A stretch of 64,000 nt of DNA from the NCBI GenBank assembly GCA_965215265.1, contig OZ244048.1, positions 3,392,001-3,456,000 on the forward strand. The letters run 5' to 3'. The notes below the pieces were generated by a model. The model saw only the letters and a program-made list of their open reading frames with translations, ran no database searches and was not told the origin of the DNA. The stretch is from Candidatus Poribacteria bacterium. GTDB lineage: Bacteria; Poribacteria; WGA-4E; WGA-3G. Both the position numbers and the translations under genes were made by a program. Below are positions 31,963 through 63,947 of this stretch, in pieces. Positions within the stretch are counted from its first letter, which is position 1; each line of letters opens with the position of its first letter.

Positions 31963-33417
31963 TTACCCCTTCACTACGCCAATGGGCCGGAGGCGCGCAA
32001 CGCGCCTTGAGAGCCCCGCTTTATCAACCACCCGTACGACCTCATCCACGTCTTTGTAAGCTTCTGAAACCTCTTCTTGCAGTGTCCGTCTGCCTTCTGC
32101 ACGTACGAAGATGCCTTGTGCTTCCAGGTCTGCCCGGATAGAGCGGCCTTTCGTGAGGGCGATTGCCCGTCTGCGCGAGAGGACTCTCCCTGCACCGTGG
32201 CATGTCGTCCCCCACGTCTCTGCCATCGCGCCTGGATTGCCGACCAACACATAAGAGGCTGTCCCCATATCACCAGGAATCAGTACCGGTTGTCCGACTT
32301 TCTGATATTTTTGCGGAATCTCCGGATGCCCTGCGGGGAAGGCACGGGTCGCACCTTTTCTATGGACAAAAAGCTCGCGTTCTTTGCCGTCAACCATGTG
32401 TTTTTCAAACTTACCGATGTTATGTGCAACATCGTAGACGAGCTCTAAGCCGAGCTCATCTTCGGTTGTTTCAAAAAACTGCATGAAAGTCTGGCGGACC
32501 CAGTGCATAATGCATTGTCTATTGTTCCACGCGTAGTTTGCACCACATGCCATCGCCGTAATGTAATCCTGTCCCTCCTTTGAATTAATGGGTGCCGAGG
32601 CAAGTTGCCGGTCAGGGAGGTTAATCCCGTATCTTTCTGCGACTTTAACCCAACTCTTGACGTGCTCGTCGCAAATCTGGTAGCCGAACCCGCGCGAACC
32701 AGTGTGGATCATGACGCAGACGTTCCCCTCAGTGAGCCCCATCACTTCGGCAGCTTCGCGGTAAAAGATTCGATCAACAACTTGAATTTCGAGGAAATGG
32801 TTGCCGGAACCGAGGGTTCCGAGTTGATTTTTTCCTCTCTGGAGGGCCCGTTGACTTGCAGCATCGGAATTCGCGCCTTGCAGGAAGCCTGTGGCTTCTG
32901 TAAATTGAAGGTCGTGTGGATGGCCGTACTCTCGCTCAATTGCCCAGCGCGCGCCTTTTTCCAACATCTCCCGTTCTTCTCCGATAGAGAGTCGAATCTG
33001 GCCGGTGGAACCGACACCACATGGGACATTTTCAAATAACTTACTGACAAGTGCCTTCGTTTTGCCTGCTAGTTGTTTTGCATCCAGGTTTGTTCGGACT
33101 AACCTCACACCGCAATTAATATCGTATCCGATGCCGCCCGGGGATACGACACCGTCGGCTTTCGGATCTGTGGCTGCGACACCACCGATGACGAAACCGT
33201 AGCCCCAATGCAGATCGGGCATCGCCAGTGAATGTTTGACAATACCGGGGAGATGCGCGACGTTTGCAACCTGCTGCAGTGCCTCGTCGCTTTTTGCCTG
33301 TTCAAGGAGTTTCTCATTGGCGTATATAATGCCGTCTACGCGCATACCTTTCATATAACTTTTCGGGATGCGCCAACGGTATTCATCCAGTTTTTGAAGG
33401 GTTATGTTGTATTCCAT
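31963..33417 (-). CDS. rtcB: RNA-splicing/repair ligase RtcB
   Basis: MPDLHWGYG, DINCG, GSGNHF, HRKGATR, PGDMG, HGAGR. Confidence 0.96.
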   Translation of the reverse strand: MEYNITLQKLDEYRWRIPKSYMKGMRVDGIIYANEKLLEQAKSDEALQQVANVAHLPGIVKHSLAMPDLHWGYGFVIGGVAATDPKADGVVSPGGIGYDINCGVRLVRTNLDAKQLAGKTKALVSKLFENVPCGVGSTGQIRLSIGEEREMLEKGARWAIEREYGHPHDLQFTEATGFLQGANSDAASQRALQRGKNQLGTLGSGNHFLEIQVVDRIFYREAAEVMGLTEGNVCVMIHTGSRGFGYQICDEHVKSWVKVAERYGINLPDRQLASAPINSKEGQDYITAMACGANYAWNNRQCIMHWVRQTFMQFFETTEDELGLELVYDVAHNIGKFEKHMVDGKERELFVHRKGATRAFPAGHPEIPQKYQKVGQPVLIPGDMGTASYVLVGNPGAMAETWGTTCHGAGRVLSRRRAIALTKGRSIRADLEAQGIFVRAEGRRTLQEEVSEAYKDVDEVVRVVDKAGLSRRVARLRPIGVVKG

Positions 33418-33459
33418 AATAACTCTCTATTTTACATGGTTCAGATGGTTGATTGATTT

Positions 33460-33735
33460 CTAATGCGGTGTTTCGTCTGATTGGGTTAATAATTTGATGA
33501 GTTCTGCTTTGGTTTCGGCGTCTAAGGCGCGTAAATCTTCTGAGCTAAGCCCAGCCAGTCGTTCTTCCAGTTTCATGCCCTGAAGCCTTTCTTCCAATGT
33601 CATGCTCTGCAGCTGTTCTTCCGGTGTGATGCCCTGGAGCCGTTCTTCTAGTGTCATTTTTTTGAGCAAATCGGGCCCCATGACATCAATAATCCGCCGG
33701 AGCTGTTTATCGTATAAATTCTCTCTTTTTGCCAT
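33460..33735 (-). CDS. Stand-alone duplicate of the Rpn-like C-terminal repeat domain (candidate orphan antitoxin, 91 aa)
   Basis: GGAGGT (33743-33748), 7 nt, ATG 33735; near-identical to the tail of the upstream gene with one extra 9-aa repeat. Confidence 0.65.
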   Translation of the reverse strand: MAKRENLYDKQLRRIIDVMGPDLLKKMTLEERLQGITPEEQLQSMTLEERLQGMKLEERLAGLSSEDLRALDAETKAELIKLLTQSDETPH

Positions 33736-34332
33736 TTTGAAGACCTCCATTGTGATTTCTGGCGCTACCCGCGCCGCATAGGAGAGGTAAGCCAGATTAT
33801 CCTCGCCGATGAGTTGCTCGACAAACTGGTAAAACTTCCGTTTGGACGAGGCAAAGAGCAGCAGGGGGTAATTTTTCGCCACCAGTTCCAATTCATTACC
33901 CGCAAAATTCAGGGAGTTTTTAATGTGGTGTTTCGTCTCATTGGGTTAACAACTTCAGGAGTTCTGCTTTGGTTTCGGTGTCTAAGGCGCGTAAATCTTC
34001 TGAGCTAAGCCCAGCCAGTCGTTCTTCCGGTGTGATGCCTTGGAGCCGTTCTTCCGGTGTGATGCCCTGGAGCCGTTCTTCTAGTGTCATTTTTTTGAGC
34101 AAATCGGGCCCCATGACATCAATAATCCGCCGGAGCTGTTTATCGTATAAATTCTCTCTTTTTGCCATTTTGAAGACCTCCATTGTGATTTCTGGCGCTA
34201 CCCGCGCCGCATAGGAGAGGTAAGCCAGATTATCCTCGCCGATGAGCTGCTCGACAAACGGGTAAAACTTCCGTTTGGACGAGGCAAAGAGCAGCAGGGG
34301 GTAATTTTTCGCTACCAGTTCCAATTCGTTAC
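33461..34332 (-). repeat. Tandem duplication of the 3' part of the Rpn-like gene
   Basis: 33461-33899 versus 33921-34332; the 27-bp length difference equals one repeat unit. Confidence 0.95.
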
Positions 34333-34792
34333 ACACAAATAGGTTCACAGGCAATAAGTCCGTGCTTTGATAATGCCCGATACCTACGGAGTCCCACTTC
34401 ACATCAGATGGGCAGCGGCTCAACACGTTTCTGGGTTGACGCGCGGAGACGATTGTCACCGTCATGTCAGCTGCCGAGATTTTCTGCTCGGCCAGGTAGA
34501 GGTGGCTGCGCCCACGAATGAGGTGGTATCCGTCTCGTGTGAGAGCATCGGCTTTGCCTTTGAATTCAATCTGATTGTAGCGGCTGAAATAGTTGAAAGC
34601 GGTTTGTGTCTGAACTCTCTCACGCTGTTGAGCGGTTTCCAAGACGAGCAGCGCATCGATGGTGCGTGGGAGCCGGCTCACCTCCACTTGTGTTTGGATA
34701 GGGATGGCGAGTTGCCCGAAGTTCACTGTCAAAACTTCTTTGAAGACAGGGTCAAGAAAATTGCGTTCGCTTGTTGGGTTATCAGTCGCCAT
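33938..34792 (-). CDS. Rpn-like PD-(D/E)xK nuclease with 9-aa C-terminal repeats
   Basis: DPVFKEVL, RTID, IEFK; xTxEERLxG repeats; AAAGGTG before ATG 34792. Confidence 0.75.
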   Translation of the reverse strand: MATDNPTSERNFLDPVFKEVLTVNFGQLAIPIQTQVEVSRLPRTIDALLVLETAQQRERVQTQTAFNYFSRYNQIEFKGKADALTRDGYHLIRGRSHLYLAEQKISAADMTVTIVSARQPRNVLSRCPSDVKWDSVGIGHYQSTDLLPVNLFVCNELELVAKNYPLLLFASSKRKFYPFVEQLIGEDNLAYLSYAARVAPEITMEVFKMAKRENLYDKQLRRIIDVMGPDLLKKMTLEERLQGITPEERLQGITPEERLAGLSSEDLRALDTETKAELLKLLTQ

Positions 34793-34848
34793 TACACCTT
34801 TACACCTTTCCATCTCTACAATCTGATAGTGCGTAACTGCTTTGTGTT

Positions 34849-34877
34849 ATTATATCGTATTTTGGCGCAAATTGCAA
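34849..34877 (-). promoter_or_regulatory. Sigma70-type promoter of the Rpn-like gene
   Basis: TTGCAA-N17-TATAAT on the minus strand. Confidence 0.6.
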
Positions 34878-34977
34878 GCAAAATCCGGGGTGAGGTGTGG
34901 TAGCATTCAGCACGAAACCTATGCGCAAGCCGCCTCGCACTTTCTATTTACCTTGGCATAACAGCAGCCTCTCCTTT

Positions 34978-37900
34978 TTATGAAGGCTGTCCACTCTCAT
35001 CATCAGATTCAGGCATTACCTGATGAGGTAAGCGCTCAATGATTCTGGTTGATTGGACGCTGATGTAAACGATGCGCTCTATGGCTGTTATCAGGTCTCG
35101 TGGATGCTCGAACCAGCCGTTGGCATCGTTGATGATGCCACTCTCCTTGTCCTGCTTGATGCGATACCTGTCTATAAACCACTCCAAGGGGGTTCTGCCG
35201 TTGACCAGGTAACGATGCGCTTCTTCCGGGATACCGGTCAATTGGACGTGTTCGTTGAGCATCAGCGTTGTTTTCTGCGGCTTATCGGCAAATCGCATGG
35301 CCCGGGTGCCGAGCCGAAAATGCTGCGGTTGCGGCACGCCCTGCTGTGCGAAAATAAGTTCCAACGGAATGCGTTCACCCGTCTCGTAACTGAGGTGGAG
35401 TTCGGCGAGTCTGGAGCCCGCTTCCGCGAAGGCGTGGAAATCGGGTGCAAACGGGATGCGTGGTAACATCTTGGACAAATCGTTGGCGAATTGTTCCCGG
35501 TAACTGGGTGCGTGCAGTACACCGTAAACGTAGTCGAAGATGTCGTCTTTGCTGATGGTGTCGTCCCTGTAATGTTCACGGAAGGCAAGTAGTGCGGTGT
35601 CTGAGATATTGTCAATCCGTTTGGGTGAATCGTCAACAGAGAGAAATGAGTCAGACGCGTCTGGTTTATCCGAAGGTTTCGGATATTGCCACCGCGGGAA
35701 GCATTGGCACGCTTCATTAAAGCCGAGATCCGGCAGGGTATCAGTAATAAGCGCGGAAAACGATTTTTTTGAACCGATGCCGGGGACACATATCACTCGG
35801 TTTTCGCTGGAACTGTCTGGGAAAATCTGGTGCATCTGGTACCGCCTCTGTATGAACGTGTAATCTGTGTAACAATTTGTGGCAATGAAAGGTCGGTACA
35901 CAACCTTTTGGATATAACTCTCATTAAATGCGGTTTTTCTCCTCCGCCTTAGGTCGTTCTCAAGATCTGTATTCCACTTAATATTTGTGGCGTAGCGGTT
36001 GACGACCTCCGCTATTGTTAATTCCGGGTTTTCTTCAAGTTTAGAGAGTGCGGCGAGGTAGTCTTGCGTCATCTGTCTTGCATTTTCAGCACATGCCTCG
36101 CGTGAGAAATTATAGATATATGCGTCTCTACTTGTGGCCAAACCTTGCGAATATAACTTAAATATCGCATCGTCTGCTTTTCCTGCTTTTGCCTGCTTTG
36201 TCCCCATCGGATAAAATTTACTAAACGCTTCACTGCGCTGCTCAATCCAATCGTGGTGGGCGTTAGGCGTAATTATCTGCCAATCGTTGAACCCTTTTAT
36301 AGATACTGCCTCGCGGAGTGCATCCAGTTTTTCCTCGCGGGTGAGATAATCGCCGATGTCACGGTAGTGGATGCGGCATCCGTCATGGGAGGCGTTTGGG
36401 TTTTTGACAAGGATTGTAATAGCAACAGGGGCCCGTGAGCCTTGACCGAACACGTTATCTCCTTCAGCACGTCTCCGTTCCCCGGATGTTCTCGCATTCC
36501 CTCGTAGGTTTAGGACGTGGATGGAGCTGAACTCCTCCACTAAACAGGCGCGGATGCCTGCATCGGCGTTTCCGTCAATCCATGAGCCGTTGGTGACGAA
36601 GGCGATAACGCCTTCATCCAGCCTATCAGATGCCCAGCGGATTGCTAACTTGTATGTGTCGTATAGACTGTTTTTTAGTGTTGCGGTAGAACGTTCTGCG
36701 TAAGTCTCTCTGACACGGTTTTCAAGTTCGGGATAATCAATGTTGGGGTTGTCGTCGGCTGCGCTCCGCTGTCCTACGGACCAGGGTGGATTGCCGACGA
36801 TGACCTGGATTGGGAGTTGCTGTTGCCGTTCGGCACGTTCGTTGTTGTCGGGCAGCCACTCCTTCGGGAAAAGGGTGGGAGCTTCTTCCTTGTTCAGGTT
36901 GAACGTATCCGTCAGCACGATGCCCTTAAAGGGTTCGTAGGGGCTGTCTTCTCCGTGCCGGCCACGGAACGCTTCTTCTATATTCACGGCGGCGATGTAG
37001 TAGGCGAGCAGCACGATTTCATTGGCGTGGAGTTCCTCCCGGAACTTGCGCCCCACATCGTCCGGGTGGATAAGCCCAGATTGTAACAGTCGGACGGGAA
37101 AGATGCCGGTGCCCGTAAACGCATCCAGCAGATGCACTCCTTCATCGCTGAGGCATCGGCCAAATTCATCTCGCAACACCTCCTCGGCACTGTGCAGAAT
37201 GAAGTCTACAACTTCAATCGGTGTGTAGACGATACCGAGGCGTTGTGCGTCTTTCTCCAAGGCAGTGGCGAAGAATTTCTCGTAAAGTTCCAACAGAACG
37301 CGTTGTTTGCCTTCGCTGTTGTCTATACCGCGTGCACGGAGTTGGACGCTCTCGTAGAAACGGGCTAAATCGCGTGTTTCGTCCTCCAATCCGAATTCTG
37401 AGAAATCGGCTTGAAGGGCGTTCAGGGCCCTCGAGACAGGGTTGCTGGCGGCGAAGTCGTAATGTTCAAAGAGTGCTTCAAAAACAGGGCGTGTCAAGAT
37501 GTGCTGTGCCATCATCTCTATGGCGTTGCTCCGGGTGATTGAGGCGTTTATTGAACTTTGCAATTCTGTATGGAACGCGTCGAACCATTCACGCAGTGCC
37601 TCATTTTCGAGGGTATTGAGTAAGCCTTCAATTCTTGCGGTGACTCGCAAAAAAATATCGGCGACATCCTTTGCCCAGCTCTCCCAGTATTTTCTGTCTC
37701 CGCAGTTCTCAACGATTTTGGCGCAGATGGCATCGGCGGGAATCTCCAGGGGCAAAAAGAGTTGTTGCGCGTTTAAGGCAGCCGGGGTGTCCGTGCCATC
37801 TCCATCAAGGTTATATCCGGTGAAGATTATCCGAGGGGTGGGGGTGTTGTTGAGGTCTATTCTGTTGATTTCGGCGTTGAGCCTGTCGTCGTGTGAGCGG

Positions 37901-39813
37901 AGGGCGCGGAGAATCTTCCACACTGCGGCGAACCGGTTATTGTCGTTGAGAATATTGGCCGGATCTGCGCCTGCGGGTATTGCCACCGGCAGGATGATGT
38001 AGCCGTACTGCTTGCCGGGCGCTTTACGCATCACACGGCCGACTGCTTGCACGATGTCCACGTGCGAGTTCCTCGGGGCCATGAAGAGCACTGCGTCGAG
38101 GGCGGGGACATCGATGCCTTCGGTGAGACACCGTGCATTTGAGAGAATACGGCAAACCCCGTCAGAATCACCCTTTAACCACTCAATCCGTTTTTTGCGG
38201 GCGAGCGCATTATCTTTTCCATCCACGTGCTCGGTTTCGCACTTAAAGTTGTGCGGGCGGTGCGCGTCCGGCATTCGTTCTATAGCACTCTCTATAACCC
38301 CGTCCCAATGTTTCACAAGGTTCTTTGACGCGGCGATGGTGTTGGTGAAGGCGATGGCACGGGTTAGCGGTTTGATTGCCGCATCGTCAGGGGTTTTTCT
38401 TTCCGGGTTTTGGAGGGCACGCCAGCAGCCTACAATCTTCGTCGCGTCGTTAATGTTAAGGGCGCTGCCACCGGATGTGCGGTATGTCTGCAGCGCTGCA
38501 TCCGCATTAGGTTCGTATATGGAAAGCACGACAACCTTGTAGTCAGAGAGCAGATCTTGTTCGACGGCTCTAGAGAAGGGCAGGTAATGGAATGCTTCGC
38601 CGTAGGTGTCCGCATCGTCCATAGAGAACACTTCAATATCATGGCGTGCGGCTTTTGCCTTCGCGCTTTCGGTATAGAGGCGTGAGGTAGCCGTCATGTA
38701 GAGGCGCTTCTTGGCATGGATTCGGGCGTTGTCGTGTACCAGTATAAAGTGAGAAGTGTCTTCATCTGAGGCTGCGATGCCTGTGGTTCGGTGTGCTTCG
38801 TCGCAAAGGACGATATCAAACGGCGGGGCGGCTGCCGCTTGTGCTTGTTCGACGATGGGGAGTGAATGGTAGGTGCAGAACACGACTTTCATAGTGTCCG
38901 TGTCTCTTTTCTGAAGCGCTTCAGAAATCACATCGGGCGCTGTCGTCACTGGTATTTCCAGCTCCAGGATGGATGCCTCCTCGGTGGTTTTCCCGGCTCG
39001 GGTATCGGAACAGATGCCGATGTAGCGGTGCGGGATGGCCTGTTGTTCTGCCCATTCTCGCATCGCTTGTGAAAAGAGCCCGATGGAGGGCACGAGGTAT
39101 AGCACCCTGCCACCGACACCGGCGATAGCCTCGGCAATGCGGAGCGCCGTGAACGTTTTGCCGGTGCCGCACGCCATCAGGAGTTTGCCACGGTCGGAAT
39201 GTTTGAAGCCGTTGATAACGTCATCAACCGCTTCTTTTTGATGCGGGCGGAGGCTGAACTTTTCTGGTTGAGAGTCGAGTTGTTCGGGCGCTTGCTCGGC
39301 GAGGTCCGGCCAGTTGACGGGGCGGCTGGCGAGCTCGGCGGCACTGAGGCGTTGGCAGGGCGGTTGCAAGCCGTCGAGAGTCCTATAGACGTTGGCACTC
39401 CAGCTGTCGCTGGTGTCAACGAACAGGCGCGCGGTGAAGGGCGCACGACCGGATGCCGAGATAAAGGTGTCCACATCTTGTTTTCTGATACGTGTGTTTT
39501 CAGCGTAACATTTGCACTGGATTGCGCAGTAGCCGCCTTCGCGTTCTTCCGCTACCAGGTCGATGCCGATATCCACCCCATCGAACTCTGGGCGAAGCGC
39601 TGCCCATTCAGCCCAGAGATACACATCGGAAAACCGATTTTTATAGAAGGCATCTTCAAGCAGATAGCGCCGGATTAAACGCTCGAAAAGTCTGCCGACT
39701 CCGTATTGGGTATTCGCATTTTCGCGAATGTAGTGGAGGGCCGTGTAGAAGCCGTTATCTTTTTGTTCGGTTCCGCTTTGTAAGTCTAAGTAGATTTGTG
39801 TGGTTTCTGACAT
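34978..39813 (-). CDS. Type ISP restriction-modification enzyme (LlaGI/LlaBIII-like: Mrr nuclease, SF2 helicase, adenine MTase, TRD)
   Basis: GIDLVA..IQCK, MACGTGKT, DEAH, QAVGRVMR, VYTP, LDAFTGTG, GNPPW, LRGN; 1611 aa. Confidence 0.93.
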   Translation of the reverse strand: MSETTQIYLDLQSGTEQKDNGFYTALHYIRENANTQYGVGRLFERLIRRYLLEDAFYKNRFSDVYLWAEWAALRPEFDGVDIGIDLVAEEREGGYCAIQCKCYAENTRIRKQDVDTFISASGRAPFTARLFVDTSDSWSANVYRTLDGLQPPCQRLSAAELASRPVNWPDLAEQAPEQLDSQPEKFSLRPHQKEAVDDVINGFKHSDRGKLLMACGTGKTFTALRIAEAIAGVGGRVLYLVPSIGLFSQAMREWAEQQAIPHRYIGICSDTRAGKTTEEASILELEIPVTTAPDVISEALQKRDTDTMKVVFCTYHSLPIVEQAQAAAAPPFDIVLCDEAHRTTGIAASDEDTSHFILVHDNARIHAKKRLYMTATSRLYTESAKAKAARHDIEVFSMDDADTYGEAFHYLPFSRAVEQDLLSDYKVVVLSIYEPNADAALQTYRTSGGSALNINDATKIVGCWRALQNPERKTPDDAAIKPLTRAIAFTNTIAASKNLVKHWDGVIESAIERMPDAHRPHNFKCETEHVDGKDNALARKKRIEWLKGDSDGVCRILSNARCLTEGIDVPALDAVLFMAPRNSHVDIVQAVGRVMRKAPGKQYGYIILPVAIPAGADPANILNDNNRFAAVWKILRALRSHDDRLNAEINRIDLNNTPTPRIIFTGYNLDGDGTDTPAALNAQQLFLPLEIPADAICAKIVENCGDRKYWESWAKDVADIFLRVTARIEGLLNTLENEALREWFDAFHTELQSSINASITRSNAIEMMAQHILTRPVFEALFEHYDFAASNPVSRALNALQADFSEFGLEDETRDLARFYESVQLRARGIDNSEGKQRVLLELYEKFFATALEKDAQRLGIVYTPIEVVDFILHSAEEVLRDEFGRCLSDEGVHLLDAFTGTGIFPVRLLQSGLIHPDDVGRKFREELHANEIVLLAYYIAAVNIEEAFRGRHGEDSPYEPFKGIVLTDTFNLNKEEAPTLFPKEWLPDNNERAERQQQLPIQVIVGNPPWSVGQRSAADDNPNIDYPELENRVRETYAERSTATLKNSLYDTYKLAIRWASDRLDEGVIAFVTNGSWIDGNADAGIRACLVEEFSSIHVLNLRGNARTSGERRRAEGDNVFGQGSRAPVAITILVKNPNASHDGCRIHYRDIGDYLTREEKLDALREAVSIKGFNDWQIITPNAHHDWIEQRSEAFSKFYPMGTKQAKAGKADDAIFKLYSQGLATSRDAYIYNFSREACAENARQMTQDYLAALSKLEENPELTIAEVVNRYATNIKWNTDLENDLRRRRKTAFNESYIQKVVYRPFIATNCYTDYTFIQRRYQMHQIFPDSSSENRVICVPGIGSKKSFSALITDTLPDLGFNEACQCFPRWQYPKPSDKPDASDSFLSVDDSPKRIDNISDTALLAFREHYRDDTISKDDIFDYVYGVLHAPSYREQFANDLSKMLPRIPFAPDFHAFAEAGSRLAELHLSYETGERIPLELIFAQQGVPQPQHFRLGTRAMRFADKPQKTTLMLNEHVQLTGIPEEAHRYLVNGRTPLEWFIDRYRIKQDKESGIINDANGWFEHPRDLITAIERIVYISVQSTRIIERLPHQVMPESDDESGQPS

Positions 39814-62639: not shown

Positions 62640-62669
62640 ATTTTGTCAAGGCAGTCTCCAGATTTCGTT

Positions 62670-62862
62670 TCTCAAGGCGGCCTCGGTGCTTCTCTGAAAG
62701 CAAAAAAAACCAGGGGCAGCCATGTGAGGGTGGCTGCCCCTGGTTTAGGTTAGGTTAGGTGAATTTACATCTCACTGAGTTTACTCTTGTGCCTTAAGCG
62801 TCGCCCAGCGTTCTGTGAGTTTACCGTCCGCACTCAGATGCCCTTTCAAGCGGGTTGTCTGC
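62670..62862 (-). repeat. ~195-bp module, copy 2
   Basis: Matches 620-818; encodes QTTRLKGHLSADGKLTERWATLKAQE* (62781-62861) and the terminator. Confidence 0.95.
62702..62746 (-). terminator. Intrinsic terminator
   Basis: Same stem as 652-697 with a U-tract on the minus strand. Confidence 0.9.
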
Positions 62863-63947
62863 TACGTGTCGGTGTGGTTGTCAGCTGCCTCCAGCTGCCG
62901 GACGAGTTCTGCACGCACCTCTGGAGATAAATTCTGAATCTCCGCCGGGCGAAGTCCGGCTAACCGTTCATCGGGAGTGAGTCCTTTGACGCGCTCATCG
63001 GGGCTCAGGCGTGCTAACATATCGGCCCGTTCTGCGGCGGGTAGACTCGCCAACATATCGGCCCGTTCTGCGGCGGGTAGACTCGCCAACATATCCGCAC
63101 GTTCTGCCGCAGATAGCCTTGCTAACATGTCCGCACGGGCTTCAGCGGGCAGCCGTGCGAGCAGATCCGCCCGGTCTTGAGGACTCAAGCGGGCGAGCAT
63201 GTCCGCACGCTCCTCCGATGTCAGTGCCGACAGCAGCTTCGGACCTAAAGTCGTCGCAACTTCGCGAAGACGACTCTGAAAGAAATCTTGACGTCCTTCC
63301 ATTTCACAAACCTCCTCCGTGACTTCCGGCTGCAAATACAACGCGGAGTCAAAATATAACGTATTCTCTTCCGTTATCACCCGCCGCAGGAACGCACGAA
63401 ACTGTTTCTGCGACGACGCAAACAGCAGCAACCAATAATTCGGTTCAACCAGTGCCACTTCATTGCAAACCAACAGATGCACCGGCACGCCATCCATCAA
63501 CCGATAATGCCCTGCCGCCAATGGCTCCCACGGCTCCCCAAAAGGCGGACGGGAGAGCAGCACCCGCGGCTTCCGAGACGACACTATCGTCAAGGTAACC
63601 TCCGTGTCTGGCACCTTATGCGCTGCGAGATAACCACGCGCACGCATACAAATCCGGTGATACGCCGAGGCATTCAACGGGTCGTTCTGCCCTTTGAACT
63701 CGAACAGATTATACGTGCGTAAGTAAGAGAGCAGCGGATTCGCACGCACTCTCGCCCGGGCTGCGGCACTTTCGAGGAGAGCGAGTGCATCTATACGCTG
63801 CGGCAACCGGTTGACTTCTATCTCTGTCTGGATAGAGGCACCCAGCCCAGAGAATAGCAGGGCGAGGAACTCTTTGAAGAAAGGGTCCCAGAGTTTCCGT
63901 TTGCTTTGTGTTTCTTTAGATGTCTCTGGTGCCGTAGTTTGCCTCAT
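62862..63947 (-). CDS. Rpn-like PD-(D/E)xK nuclease with 12-aa and 9-aa C-terminal repeats
   Basis: DPFFKEFL, QRID, FEFK; paralog of 33938-34792 (CNE..LV..NY.LLLFASS). Confidence 0.75.
   Translation of the reverse strand: MRQTTAPETSKETQSKRKLWDPFFKEFLALLFSGLGASIQTEIEVNRLPQRIDALALLESAAARARVRANPLLSYLRTYNLFEFKGQNDPLNASAYHRICMRARGYLAAHKVPDTEVTLTIVSSRKPRVLLSRPPFGEPWEPLAAGHYRLMDGVPVHLLVCNEVALVEPNYWLLLFASSQKQFRAFLRRVITEENTLYFDSALYLQPEVTEEVCEMEGRQDFFQSRLREVATTLGPKLLSALTSEERADMLARLSPQDRADLLARLPAEARADMLARLSAAERADMLASLPAAERADMLASLPAAERADMLARLSPDERVKGLTPDERLAGLRPAEIQNLSPEVRAELVRQLEAADNHTDT
62955..63224 (-). repeat. Coding tandem repeats: six 36-bp units then two 27-bp units
   Basis: LxxxxRADMLAx x6, then LSPDERVKG and LTPDERLAG. 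Confidence 0.9.

What the first reader, a model, noticed from the sequence alone, without database searches (positions are those of the whole stretch)
33938..34792. Rpn-like nucleases hide an internal translation start: candidate gene-within-gene antitoxin
Seen: GGAGGT (34176-34181), exactly 7 nt, then in-frame ATG 34168, giving a 76-aa repeat protein. The divergent paralog has GGAGGAGGT (63310-63318), 7 nt, ATG 63302 at the same aligned position, giving 146 aa. The point marks the switch from conserved nuclease domain to variable repeat tail. Established: enterobacterial Rpn proteins are antiphage DNases blocked by separately translated C-terminal fragments. Inference: the same logic in a distant family using xTPEERLxG helical repeats as the variable module.
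Basis: partly seen in the sequence, partly recalled or inferred. Interest (0 to 1): 0.8.

Follow-up and report, generated by a model that had tools for sequence, protein, structure and literature searches.

The report
Second nuclease family with internal antitoxin start
A multi-copy, unannotated nuclease gene family in a sponge-symbiont-type bacterium carries a conserved ribosome-binding site and start codon inside the gene, so it probably makes a small tail protein that keeps its own nuclease in check, as the known Rpn defence genes do.

Summary
GGAGGT (34181-34176), 7 nt, in-frame ATG (34168) gives a 76-aa product; gene B has GGAGGAGGT, 7 nt, ATG 63302, giving 146 aa.

It is not chance. The Met is kept in 26 of 26 paralogs and 121 of 122 database homologues. 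In 38 non-redundant genes the two codons carrying the SD end in G in 37 of 38, although codon -5 encodes six different residues.

Stand-alone tail genes starting at this Met lie downstream of four full genes in this genome, including window 33460-33735. In some other genomes only the tail was found.

The N-domain has a PD-(D/E)xK nuclease fold with invariant D53, E83 and K85. It matches no Rpn model.

The same genome holds 24 canonical Rpn genes, 23 with the same GGAGGT-7 nt-ATG design.

Best reading: an Rpn-like gene-within-gene toxin-antitoxin in a separate nuclease family, with 9-12-residue tail repeats. Translation, toxicity, inhibition and antiphage action are inferred, not shown.

The parts
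33938..34792 (-). Gene A, long form (L): PD-(D/E)xK nuclease domain, helical linker and repeat tail. The likely start is ATG 34792 (MATDNPTSER...). The mechanical ORF extends to ATG 34813.
   Evidence: ORF. Homologues start at the equivalent M-x-T-D. AF2 model: pLDDT 81.7, pTM 0.72. Nuclease-fold matches. D53, E83 and K85 are invariant in 26 of 26 paralogs.
34176..34181 (-). Internal Shine-Dalgarno GGAGGT, carried by codons 211-213 (ATG GAG GTC).
   Evidence: Third bases of codons -5 and -4 are G in 37 of 38 non-redundant genes.
33938..34168 (-). Proposed small form (S) of gene A: 76 aa from internal ATG 34168 to stop TGA 33940-33938.
   Evidence: Met column is M in 121 of 122 sequences and 38 of 38.
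34020..34081 (-). 27-nt tandem repeats (2.3 copies) encoding the xTPEERLQG units of the tail.
34229..34257 (-). Weak internal promoter-like site, TTGTCG-17-GATAAT, ending 48 nt upstream of the SD. A lead only.
   Evidence: 9 of 12 matches; 3 sites found in the region against 1.5 expected. The Asn codon inside the -10-like hexamer is AAT in 31 of 32 genes, against 188 AAT to 197 AAC elsewhere in these genes.
34849..34877 (-). Promoter-like site upstream of gene A: TTGCAA-17-TATAAT.
   Evidence: 10 of 12 matches. The other paralogs carry TTGACA-17-TATACT in the same place.
33460..33895 (-). Partial tandem duplicate of gene A, from its codon about 159 to the end, without the nuclease core.
   Evidence: 300 nt at 96% identity and 174 nt at 87% identity. 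Also.
33743..33748 (-). SD GGAGGT of the stand-alone copy.
33460..33735 (-). Stand-alone small-protein gene: 91 aa (MAKRENLY...QSDETPH). It has one more 9-aa repeat than gene A's own tail and a 6-aa longer end.
   Evidence: The protein collection holds exactly this 91-aa product from this genome (P0390).
62862..63947 (-). Gene B, long form (361 aa). It is one of 17 B-type paralogs in the genome.
63310..63318 (-). Internal SD GGAGGAGGT of gene B.
62862..63302 (-). Proposed small form of gene B: 146 aa, with ERADMLAxLPAA-type repeats that match the MgtE_N profile.
   Evidence: PF03448, E = 3e-16, residues 238-319.
34978..39813 (-). Neighbouring defence gene: Type ISP restriction-modification enzyme (1611 aa), directly upstream of gene A on the same strand.
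   Evidence: Mrr_cat_2, ResIII, ISP_coupler and Type_ISP_C. PADLOC REase_MTase_IIG, 1873 bits.

Best explanation
Gene A, gene B and 24 paralogs each encode two proteins from one frame.

The long form (L) is a PD-(D/E)xK DNA nuclease with a helical repeat tail. It is made from the gene's own promoter and 5' start.

The small form (S) is the tail alone. In gene A it starts at codon 216, from a Shine-Dalgarno sequence embedded in codons 211-213 and placed 7 nt before the ATG. S would pair with the identical tail of L and hold the nuclease inactive, as a dominant-negative, protein-type antitoxin. Infection or another cue would release L.

The number of tail repeats sets which S fits which L, so the many copies in one cell would not cross-inhibit. 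Extra S genes, with the same SD and ATG but without the nuclease, arise by partial tandem duplication downstream of the L gene.

Shown here:
- the SD and ATG are under nucleotide-level conservation;
- S-only genes exist and start at that Met;
- the N-domain has a nuclease fold and an intact catalytic triad;
- tail length is hypervariable;
- canonical Rpn genes in the same genome use the same design.

Inferred by analogy with E. coli Rpn:
- S is translated;
- L is toxic;
- S binds and blocks L;
- the system acts against phage.
For: (a) Conservation of the start. The column is ATG in 26 of 26 paralogs and 22 of 22 loci from other genomes. The residue is M in 121 of 122 aligned proteins, the other being V.

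(b) SD beyond protein constraint, in 38 non-redundant genes. Codon -5 encodes E, K, L, M, Q or R, and its third base is G in 37 of 38. Codon -4 is GAG in 37 of 38 and GAT in 1. Only 8 of 285 scored columns have 90% or more of one third base, and three of them are -5, -4 and the Met. Of 188 columns with four or more residues, only 2 reach 90%.

Internal codon controls: Lys at -5 is AAG 17 to AAA 1, but Lys at -1 is AAA 10 to AAG 1 and Lys at +3 is AAA 18 to AAG 4. Glu at -4 is GAG 37 to 0. The seven other conserved Glu columns are mixed.

(c) Stand-alone S genes. Five modules lie downstream of four full genes in this genome, and all five keep GGAG, 9 nt, ATG. In subfamily 3 the homology starts only about 40 nt before the ATG.
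- Locus L059 has in-frame stops up to the Met, and the gene's native 5' leader is fused to it. L060 is alike, but there a GGAG is not kept in that leader.
- L058 is an in-frame deletion of the nuclease.
- L054 has a full gene plus two tail copies, each with GAGGAGGT, 4 nt, ATG.
- The protein collection independently holds the 91-aa product of the window's own stand-alone copy.

(d) Tail-only genes stay open. dN/dS is 0.10-0.54 in 10 pairs among 5 loci, against a median of 0.17 for tails inside full genes.

(e) Nuclease domain. The best fold matches are PD-(D/E)xK nucleases over model residues about 17-176:
- NucS 2vld_B: Z 8.9, rmsd 3.0, 104 residues aligned
- AF1548 1y88_A: Z 8.1, rmsd 3.3, 115 residues aligned
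- McrC 6hz4_M: Z 7.7
- Can2, Card1, FokI and BglII: Z 5.9-7.3
D53, E83 and K85 are present in 26 of 26 paralogs and 19 of 19 diverse N-domains.

(f) Same design in canonical Rpn here. This genome holds 24 genes above the PF04754 cut-off, with variable 4-aa repeats. ATGGAGGT, 7 nt, ATG occurs in 23 of 24, and GAGGAGGA in the last one.

(g) In E. coli rpnA the RBS and iTIS were abolished by K240R+E241D+M244L, so there too a Lys-Glu codon pair carries the RBS (PMC10400941, Results).

(h) Tails: 24 distinct lengths among 26 paralogs, 69-238 aa.

(i) Distant N-domain relatives (18-33% identity) carry Rpn-type tails: PF14261 in 4 of 54, and the TIGR01784 C-terminal part in 5 of 54.

(j) Predicted L plus S complex. 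The ipSAE scores were 0.57, 0.61 and 0.56, with a best control of 0.01, and the verdict was 'weak support'. The mark was reached by 58 of 80 solved complexes and 2 of 110 mismatched pairs. At 0.60 or under it was reached by only 7 of the 80 and by both mismatches. The runs agree in at least 97% of contacts, and the partner's pLDDT is at least 78.

(k) Context: a Type ISP R-M enzyme is the immediate upstream neighbour.
Against: There is no expression or protein evidence of any kind.

The sequences compared are relatives, so the counts overstate independence. With all four bases tested, columns -5 and -4 rank only 9th and 10th of 1096 naive column-by-base z-scores. Among the G tests alone they rank 1st and 2nd of 285.

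A conserved Met and Glu-Val could partly reflect protein structure, because the model places them at a helix boundary.

The N-domain shows no detectable sequence relation to Rpn: hhalign probability was 0.1% and 0.4%. The analogy therefore rests on architecture, not homology.

The window genes' tails match no DUF4351 model. Language-model likeness of gene B's tail to HTH_Rpn_C or DUF4351 clusters is only 0.76-0.77, below the lead threshold.

The stand-alone copy next to gene A differs from A's own tail by one repeat. By the E. coli rule that only an equal repeat number inhibits, this copy might not block A.

The complex score is 'weak', a class the tool describes as more often wrong than right unless the guess was likely beforehand.

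Apart from the Type ISP enzyme, the neighbours checked are metabolic or other non-defence genes, so this is not a clear defence island.
Confidence: 0.62

Rival explanations
1. The small tail protein is made from the internal start, but it is not an antitoxin. It could be a needed subunit or regulator of the nuclease complex, like Cas11d made from inside cas10d. It could also be an independent helical-repeat protein with its own role.
For: The introduction of PMC10400941 cites Cas10d/Cas11d as an internal-start product with a complementary function. At least 11 of the 37 genomes with a match show only tail matches, and these tails are still under purifying selection. That fits a function that does not need the nuclease. 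Gene B's tail resembles MgtE_N-type helical repeats, and its closest language-model neighbours are clusters of small proteins of 71-93 aa.
Against: The architecture copies Rpn point by point, and in Rpn the antitoxin role was shown experimentally. Hypervariable repeat number and 24 distinct tail lengths among 26 paralogs fit a specificity code better than a housekeeping subunit. Orphan antitoxins are also common in toxin-antitoxin families; this last point is recalled, not tested here.
Confidence: 0.15
2. No small protein is made. The GGAG and ATG are kept for another reason, for example as a ribosome pause site at the domain boundary, an mRNA element, or structural need for Glu-Val...Met. The downstream tail copies would be decaying leftovers of duplication or recombination.
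For: There are no expression data. One downstream copy (L003/L040) has in-frame stops inside the tail. Naive synonymous-site scores are inflated by relatedness.
Against: Stand-alone ORFs begin exactly at this Met, with stops upstream (L059 and L060). Codon -5 changes residue six ways yet keeps G3. The duplicated units in subfamily 3 begin about 40 nt before the ATG, so they carry just the RBS and the ORF. Tail-only ORFs show dN/dS of 0.10-0.54. The same motif in canonical Rpn corresponds to a proven iTIS in E. coli.
Confidence: 0.1
3. The family is a selfish mobile gene, and the small product is a copy-number brake. This would resemble the truncated inhibitor made from an internal start in the Tn5 transposase gene (recalled, not checked here).
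For: There are 26 dispersed copies, each with its own strong promoter (TTGACA-17-TATACT) and conserved flanks of about 200 nt. Distribution in the phylum is patchy: 37 of 176 genomes and 10 of 31 genera. Rpn proteins were long annotated as putative transposases.
Against: The B-type units are bounded on both sides by the same terminator hairpin plus promoter module in direct orientation. I saw no terminal inverted repeats, though this check was limited to a consensus of 17 copies. No autonomous PD-(D/E)xK transposase is known, and the Rpn authors rejected transposition for the same reasons.
Confidence: 0.06
4. The downstream tail copies are mainly silent cassettes. Homologous recombination with them swaps the tail of the expressed nuclease gene, giving diversification rather than supply of antitoxin.
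For: There is 96% identity over 300 nt between gene A's tail and the downstream copy. The copies differ in repeat number from the gene upstream: 76 against 91 aa, 122 against 95 and 95, 167 against 125, and 77 against 170. Subfamily-3 N-domains carry B-type repeats. The Rpn paper reports fusion of the N-domain with the rpnSs region.
Against: Every copy in this genome keeps its own SD and ATG, and tail-only genes persist where no full gene was found. This reading does not exclude the main explanation.
Confidence: 0.07

Closest known systems
E. coli RpnA-E and plasmid RpnP2, the RpnL/RpnS gene-within-gene toxin-antitoxin (Zhong et al. 2023, PMC10400941; abstract, Results parts 1-2 and Discussion read)
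   Same: - A PD-(D/E)xK nuclease followed by a variable helical tail.
- An in-frame internal RBS and ATG at the boundary. In rpnA the RBS lies in a Lys-Glu codon pair; here it lies mostly in Lys-Glu or Glu-Glu codons.
- Tail repeat number is hypervariable.
- Many copies per genome.
- Extra stand-alone tail genes derived from the gene just upstream.
- A tendency to sit next to defence genes.
   Different: - The N-domain is not recognised by PF04754 or TIGR01784 and gives no profile-profile signal.
- The catalytic motif is D...ExK here, whereas the canonical copies in this genome show D...EHQ.
- The repeat units are 9-12 residues (xTPEERLQG, ERADMLAxLPAA) and lie after the first helix of S. In Rpn they are 4-residue units inside that helix.
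- No experiment exists for this family.
The 24 canonical Rpn (PF04754) genes of the same genome
   Same: ATGGAGGT, 7 nt, ATG lies at the tail boundary in 23 of 24. That is the same hexamer and spacing as in gene A. Repeat numbers are variable and S products are predicted at 81-113 aa.
   Different: Different N-domain family, 4-aa GIEQ/GREE repeats, and different loci. Relatives are annotated as 'Rpn family recombination-promoting nuclease/putative transposase', whereas relatives of gene A are all 'hypothetical protein' with no Pfam domain.
Stand-alone RpnS genes: ypaA/rpnESs, rpnCSs and DUF4351 (PF14261) proteins
   Same: A second copy of the small protein is encoded directly downstream of the long gene and derives from that gene. 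Here that is window 33460-33735, plus four more modules in the genome and others in relatives.
   Different: The window's tails do not match PF14261. PF14261 appears only in 4 of the 54 scanned proteins, all among the 53 distant N-domain relatives.
PD-(D/E)xK defence and repair nucleases (NucS, McrC, Can2/Card1, type II restriction enzymes)
   Same: Fold of residues about 17-176, and the position of D53 and E83-x-K85 on the core strands.
   Different: Z scores are only 5.9-8.9. None of these has the repeat tail or an internal start.

Membership tests
Rpn family (PF04754 Transposase_31 / TIGR01784 / COG5464) | N-terminal domain matches the family's sequence models. | tested here: not met
   Genes A and B give no PF04754 or TIGR01784 hit at E <= 0.1. 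A genome-wide PF04754 search at E <= 1 finds 24 other loci above the family cut-off and none of the 26 paralogs. hhalign of the N-domain alignments gives probability 0.1% and 0.4%. COG5464 membership could not be tested.
Rpn family (PF04754 Transposase_31 / TIGR01784 / COG5464) | In-frame internal RBS plus start codon at the boundary between nuclease and tail. | tested here: met
   At sequence level: 26 of 26 paralogs and 22 of 22 foreign loci keep the ATG, and the SD is conserved at synonymous sites. Actual initiation is not testable with these tools.
Rpn family (PF04754 Transposase_31 / TIGR01784 / COG5464) | Hypervariable number of short repeats in the shared tail. | tested here: met
   There are 24 distinct tail lengths in 26 paralogs, 69-238 aa. 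The units are 9-12 aa, not 4 aa.
Rpn family (PF04754 Transposase_31 / TIGR01784 / COG5464) | Tail belongs to DUF4351 / HTH_Rpn_C. | tested here: not met
   The window genes give no PF14261 hit. Language-model likeness of gene B's tail to HTH_Rpn_C or DUF4351 clusters is 0.76-0.77. PF27070 gave no row in any Pfam scan here, and I did not check whether the copy of Pfam used holds it. Of the 54 scanned proteins, 4 (all distant N-domain relatives) carry PF14261, and 5 of 54 match the tail part of TIGR01784.
Rpn family (PF04754 Transposase_31 / TIGR01784 / COG5464) | Small form binds and inhibits the long form. | tested here: inconclusive
   The predicted complex scored 0.57 against a best control of 0.01, with verdict 'weak support'. 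Inhibition itself is not testable here.
Rpn family (PF04754 Transposase_31 / TIGR01784 / COG5464) | Long form is toxic or induces SOS; the system protects against phage. | not testable with these tools
   This needs expression and phage assays.
PD-(D/E)xK phosphodiesterase superfamily | Alpha-beta-beta-beta-alpha-beta core with Asp on strand 2 and (D/E)xK on strand 3. | tested here: met
   Model elements: H22-33, E39-45, E50-57 (D53), E79-85 (E83, K85), H93-110, E117-123. The top fold matches are PD-(D/E)xK nucleases, Z 8.9 to 5.9. The triad is invariant in 26 of 26 paralogs and 19 of 19 diverse N-domains. In 54 sequences that include distant relatives, K85 is invariant and D53 and E83 are at 90% or more.
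Insertion sequence / autonomous transposon | Defined ends with terminal inverted repeats and target-site duplications. | tested here: inconclusive
   Consensus flanks of 17 B-type copies show the same terminator hairpin plus promoter module on both sides, in direct orientation. I saw no terminal inverted repeats. No empty-site comparison was made.

The most novel reading that the evidence does not exclude
A second PD-(D/E)xK nuclease family, unrelated to Rpn by any sequence test used here, has the full gene-within-gene antitoxin design: an embedded RBS, a self-derived small inhibitor, repeat-length coding of specificity, and spin-off antitoxin genes. One 4.8-Mb genome would then run about 50 such self-locked nucleases (26 plus 24), nearly each with its own tail length, as a bar-coded defence array. 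The tail-only genes, found alone in at least 11 genomes, would be orphan antitoxins retained for a function of their own, for example to neutralise incoming or related nucleases. If so, the design is either very old or has arisen more than once. That would answer the open question of whether Rpn is the tip of an iceberg.
Probability: 0.35. Interest if true: 0.8.

Novelty: new variant of a known kind. Interest (0 to 1): 0.68.

Why it matters
The commentary on the Rpn discovery (PMC10400984, whole text read) asks whether antitoxins made from internal start sites are unique to Rpn or the tip of an iceberg.

This family gives a concrete second case to test. It is a nuclease family that current models do not name. 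All 120 listed relatives carry no Pfam domain, and the few that carry a name are called hypothetical. The N-domain profile finds 1427 representative clusters at E <= 0.001.

The family shows the same embedded RBS, variable tail and spin-off small genes. It would also explain a large block of unannotated multi-copy genes in Poribacteria-type genomes. And it shows that a simple signature, G-ending codons before a conserved internal Met, can flag such genes from sequence alone.

I found no description of this family in three full-text searches. Those searches cover only the held library. Supplementary files of the Rpn paper, such as Dataset S1 which lists separate RpnS genes, were not seen and may bear on how far the authors' ortholog set reaches.

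Tried and rejected
- Foldseek against the PDB gave no match at E <= 0.001. The best nuclease rows were 1y88 at E 0.12 and EcoO109I at E 0.45. VIA-align wide was used instead.
- phmmer of gene A against PDB sequences gave nothing meaningful. The best hit was a designed helical protein at E 0.012, matching the tail.
- hhalign of this family against canonical Rpn gave no signal, first with shallow alignments and then with deeper N-domain alignments of 100 and 123 sequences. I therefore dropped the idea that this is simply a divergent PF04754 member.
- PADLOC gave no model for A, for the stand-alone copy or for a canonical Rpn of this genome. B gave only a weak hit to a Type I specificity subunit, through its repeats (E 0.0028).
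- RNA evidence: no RNA holder was listed for window 33400-34950. Contigs of four DNA runs laid on the stretch were broken at the repeats. They showed no insertions, deletions or joints, so nothing could be learned about repeat-number variation between samples.
- The roughly 100-copy repeat upstream of gene B, outside the window, turned out to be the internal repeats of a leucine-rich-repeat protein gene and is unrelated.
- A naive z-score over all four third-position bases does not single out the SD columns, which rank 9th and 10th of 1096. I therefore rely on the residue-variable, base-constant criterion and on the within-gene codon controls.
- The internal promoter-like site is weak and is kept as a lead only.
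- Language-model neighbours of the N-domain include clusters carrying PF04754 (16% of members), PF27070 (10%) and PF14261 (66%) at score 0.91. This was treated as a lead, and the profile comparison did not confirm it.
Full report
WHAT IS THERE

On the minus strand, ORF 33938-34813 encodes 291 aa.

GGAGGT lies at 34181-34176. Seven bases follow, then an in-frame ATG at 34168, which is codon 216 of the 291-codon ORF. From there to the stop is 76 aa. Gene B (62862-63947, 361 aa) has GGAGGAGGT at 63318-63310, seven bases and ATG 63302, also codon 216, giving 146 aa.

Forty-six bases downstream of gene A's stop lies a partial tandem copy of the gene, from about codon 159 to the end. It shares 300 nt at 96% and 174 nt at 87% identity with gene A and keeps its own GGAGGT (33748-33743), 7 nt and ATG (33735).

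Read from that ATG it encodes 91 aa. That is one 9-aa repeat more than gene A's tail, plus six more residues at the end, because gene A has TGA where the copy has TCA. The large protein collection holds exactly this 91-aa protein from this genome (P0390). A gene caller therefore chose the same SD-led ATG independently.

THE FAMILY IN THIS GENOME

The window's genome is one contig of 4.83 Mb with 48% G+C. It has 26 paralogs with the N-domain, in about four subfamilies. One of them, at genome position 2224913, lacks about 30 linker residues. There are also five stand-alone tail modules downstream of four full genes, and a few N-terminal fragments.

All 26 paralogs have the Met in the same column, and all have GGAG at -13 to -10: GGAGGT in 19 and GGAGAT in 7. 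All five stand-alone modules keep GGAG, 9 nt, ATG. In subfamily 3 their homology to the full gene begins only about 40 nt before the ATG, so the duplicated unit is just the RBS plus the small ORF.

Each paralog carries its own promoter-like TTGACA-17-TATACT. The SD before the full-length start is poor in most B-type copies (AAGCAGATAGATG), in contrast to the strong internal one.

D53, E83 and K85 are present in 26 of 26 paralogs. Tails have 24 distinct lengths among 26 genes (69-238 aa), while the B-type N-parts are 91% identical (median).

IS IT MORE THAN CHANCE OR PROTEIN CONSTRAINT?

The 16S rRNA ends in GGATCACCTCCTTTCT. Among ORFs of 200 aa or more, in-frame internal GGAGGT-7 nt-ATG occurs in 19 of 26 genes of this family and 23 of 24 canonical Rpn genes. 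There are 5 such sites in the 3147 other ORFs.

Homologues are all unnamed or 'hypothetical', have no Pfam domain, and where named come from Candidatus Poribacteria. They have M in the column in 121 of 122 sequences, with one V. Twenty-two loci with DNA from other genomes all keep the ATG.

In 38 non-redundant genes:
- Codon -5 encodes E, K, L, M, Q or R, yet ends in G in 37 of 38.
- Codon -4 is GAG in 37 and GAT in 1.
- Within the same genes Lys is AAA 65% of the time and Glu is GAA 60%.
- Lys at -1 and +3 is mostly AAA (10 to 1 and 18 to 4), whereas Lys at -5 is AAG 17 to 1.
- The seven other conserved Glu columns mix GAA and GAG.
- Only 8 of 285 columns have a third base 90% or more constant, and three of them are -5, -4 and the Met.
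- Of 188 columns with four or more residues, only two reach 90%.

There is a caveat. The sequences are related, and a naive z-score over all bases ranks these columns only 9th and 10th of 1096. The argument therefore rests on the pattern 'residue varies, base does not' and on the internal codon controls. It does not rest on a p-value.

STAND-ALONE TAILS ELSEWHERE

In the phylum, 37 of 176 genomes (10 of 31 genera) have a match. At least 11 of these 37 show only tail matches, with open frames of 79-121 aa; a twelfth is cut by a contig end. Incomplete genomes cannot prove that the full gene is absent.

Inspection of individual loci shows:
- L059 has in-frame stops right up to the Met, and the native 5' leader of the full gene, with a GGAG, is fused in front of it. 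L060 is alike, but its leader reads CGGAG there, so the GGAG is not kept.
- L058 is an in-frame deletion (MSTDSP|KEILKMAGKQ...).
- L055 has a frameshifted N-terminal remnant but an intact SD, ATG and tail.
- L054 has a full gene followed by two tail copies, each with GAGGAGGT, 4 nt, ATG.
- One copy (L003/L040) has stops inside the tail and is decaying.

Tail-only ORFs give dN/dS of 0.10-0.54 in 10 pairs, similar to tails inside full genes, where the median is 0.17. Part of that divergence may predate the deletions.

WHAT THE PROTEIN IS

Neither Pfam nor NCBIfam recognises the N-domain. Gene B's tail matches MgtE_N at E 3e-16.

The AF2 model (pLDDT 81.7, pTM 0.72) shows an alpha-beta-beta-beta-alpha-beta core at residues 22-123, further strands to residue 160, and then helices. 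Foldseek found nothing significant.

The exhaustive VIA-align search lists PD-(D/E)xK nucleases at the top, over model residues about 17-176:

| Match | Z | rmsd | aligned |
|---|---|---|---|
| NucS 2vld_B | 8.9 | 3.0 | 104 |
| AF1548 1y88_A | 8.1 | 3.3 | 115 |
| McrC 6hz4_M | 7.7 | 4.0 | 119 |
| VC1899 1xmx_A | 7.7 | 3.3 | 112 |
| Can2, Card1 | 7.0-7.3 | | |
| FokI 2fok_A | 6.0 | | |
| BglII 1d2i_A | 5.9 | | |

The tool warns that Z under 8 can be a common arrangement. However, D53 sits on strand 2 and E83-x-K85 on strand 3, and all three are invariant. I take the nuclease assignment as well supported.

RELATION TO RPN

The same genome holds 24 genes above the PF04754 cut-off, and none overlaps the 26 paralogs. 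They show variable 4-aa repeats (GIEQ/GREE) and, in 23 of 24, ATGGAGGT, 7 nt, ATG at the tail boundary. That is the same hexamer and spacing as in gene A (TMEVFKMAKRE against DMEVAPMAETMAE). Their relatives are annotated as Rpn family.

In E. coli, RpnS is translated from such an internal site. The site was abolished by K240R+E241D+M244L, and RpnS blocks RpnL. Only an equal repeat number inhibits. Separate downstream copies (ypaA/rpnESs, rpnCSs) arise from the gene upstream (PMC10400941).

Profile-profile comparison of the two N-domains gave no signal. A profile of the N-domain alone finds 1427 representative clusters at E <= 0.001. Fifty-four proteins were then scanned, gene A plus 53 distant hits at 18-33% identity. 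None has PF04754. Four have DUF4351, and five match TIGR01784 only through its C-terminal part and below its cut-off. Many have a Met at or next to the junction, and tails with short tandem repeats.

So this is a distinct N-domain family. Some of its members carry Rpn-type tails, and the Poribacteria members carry xTPEERLxG or ERADMLA repeats instead.

BINDING

A predicted complex of L (291 aa) with S (residues 216-291) scored 0.57, 0.61 and 0.56. The best of three controls scored 0.01, and the verdict was 'weak support'. The mark was reached by 58 of 80 solved complexes and 2 of 110 mismatches. At 0.60 or under it was reached by only 7 of the 80 and by both mismatches. The runs agree in at least 97% of contacts, and the partner's pLDDT is at least 78. 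This is compatible with S binding L, but weak.

CONTEXT

A 1611-aa Type ISP restriction-modification enzyme lies directly upstream of gene A on the same strand, and RtcB lies downstream. The other neighbours checked are metabolic or cell-envelope genes.

B-type units are bounded on both sides by the same terminator hairpin plus promoter module in direct orientation. I saw no terminal inverted repeats.

VERDICT

The most likely mechanism is an Rpn-like L/S toxin-antitoxin in a separate PD-(D/E)xK family.

My estimate is about 0.8 that the small protein is made. I put about 0.6 on the whole mechanism. It is a new variant of a known kind.

Three full-text searches found no description of it. Supplements of the Rpn paper were not available. 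Expression data were not available either.

Noticed in passing
genome G000, 24 loci outside the window (e.g. L023-L030; L064 = G000:C1:1264791-1265870): There are 24 canonical Rpn (PF04754) genes in a 4.8-Mb genome. Each has a variable number of GIEQ/GREE 4-aa repeats, and 23 of the 24 have ATGGAGGT-7 nt-ATG before the tail. Together with the 26 genes of the new family, about 50 such genes sit in one genome.
   Followed up: partly
window 34978-39813 (-): A complete Type ISP restriction-modification enzyme (Mrr_cat_2, ResIII helicase, coupler, methylase, Type_ISP_C) lies directly upstream of gene A.
   Followed up: partly
window 33938-33940 versus 33478-33480: Gene A ends at TGA where its downstream copy reads TCA. 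A single base difference therefore makes gene A's tail six residues shorter (…LLTQ* against …LLTQSDETPH*).
   Followed up: no
38 homologues, codon 25 before the internal Met (window 34229-34234 in gene A): A conserved xAxAAT hexamer (GATAAT, GACAAT, GAGAAT, GAAAAT) lies here. Its Asn codon is AAT in 31 of 32 genes, while Asn elsewhere in these genes is AAT 188 to AAC 197. It may be the -10 element of an internal promoter, as reported for E. coli rpn genes.
   Followed up: partly
flanks of the 17 B-type paralogs in G000 (e.g. around genome 3454862-3455947; window 62650-62860): The same hairpin terminator (GGGGCAGCC...GGCTGCCCC followed by a T run), preceded by TAACC repeats, lies both upstream of the promoter and downstream of the gene. 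In more than half of the copies a second promoter-like module follows the downstream terminator.
   Followed up: no
genome G000, about 200-1200 nt upstream of gene B (beyond window end 64000): A large leucine-rich-repeat protein gene lies here. Its internal repeats give about 100 BLAST hits across the genome.
   Followed up: partly
G000:C1:1762079-1763796 and 4101304-4104858: These are arrays. One full gene is followed by two tail modules of the same 95-aa length. Two full genes in tandem are each followed by a tail module whose repeat number differs from its own gene's tail.
   Followed up: partly
L019 (a MAG named Anaerolineae): One homologue at 43% identity lies outside Poribacteria and keeps CAG GAG GTT ATT GAC ATG. 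The design is therefore not confined to one phylum.
   Followed up: no
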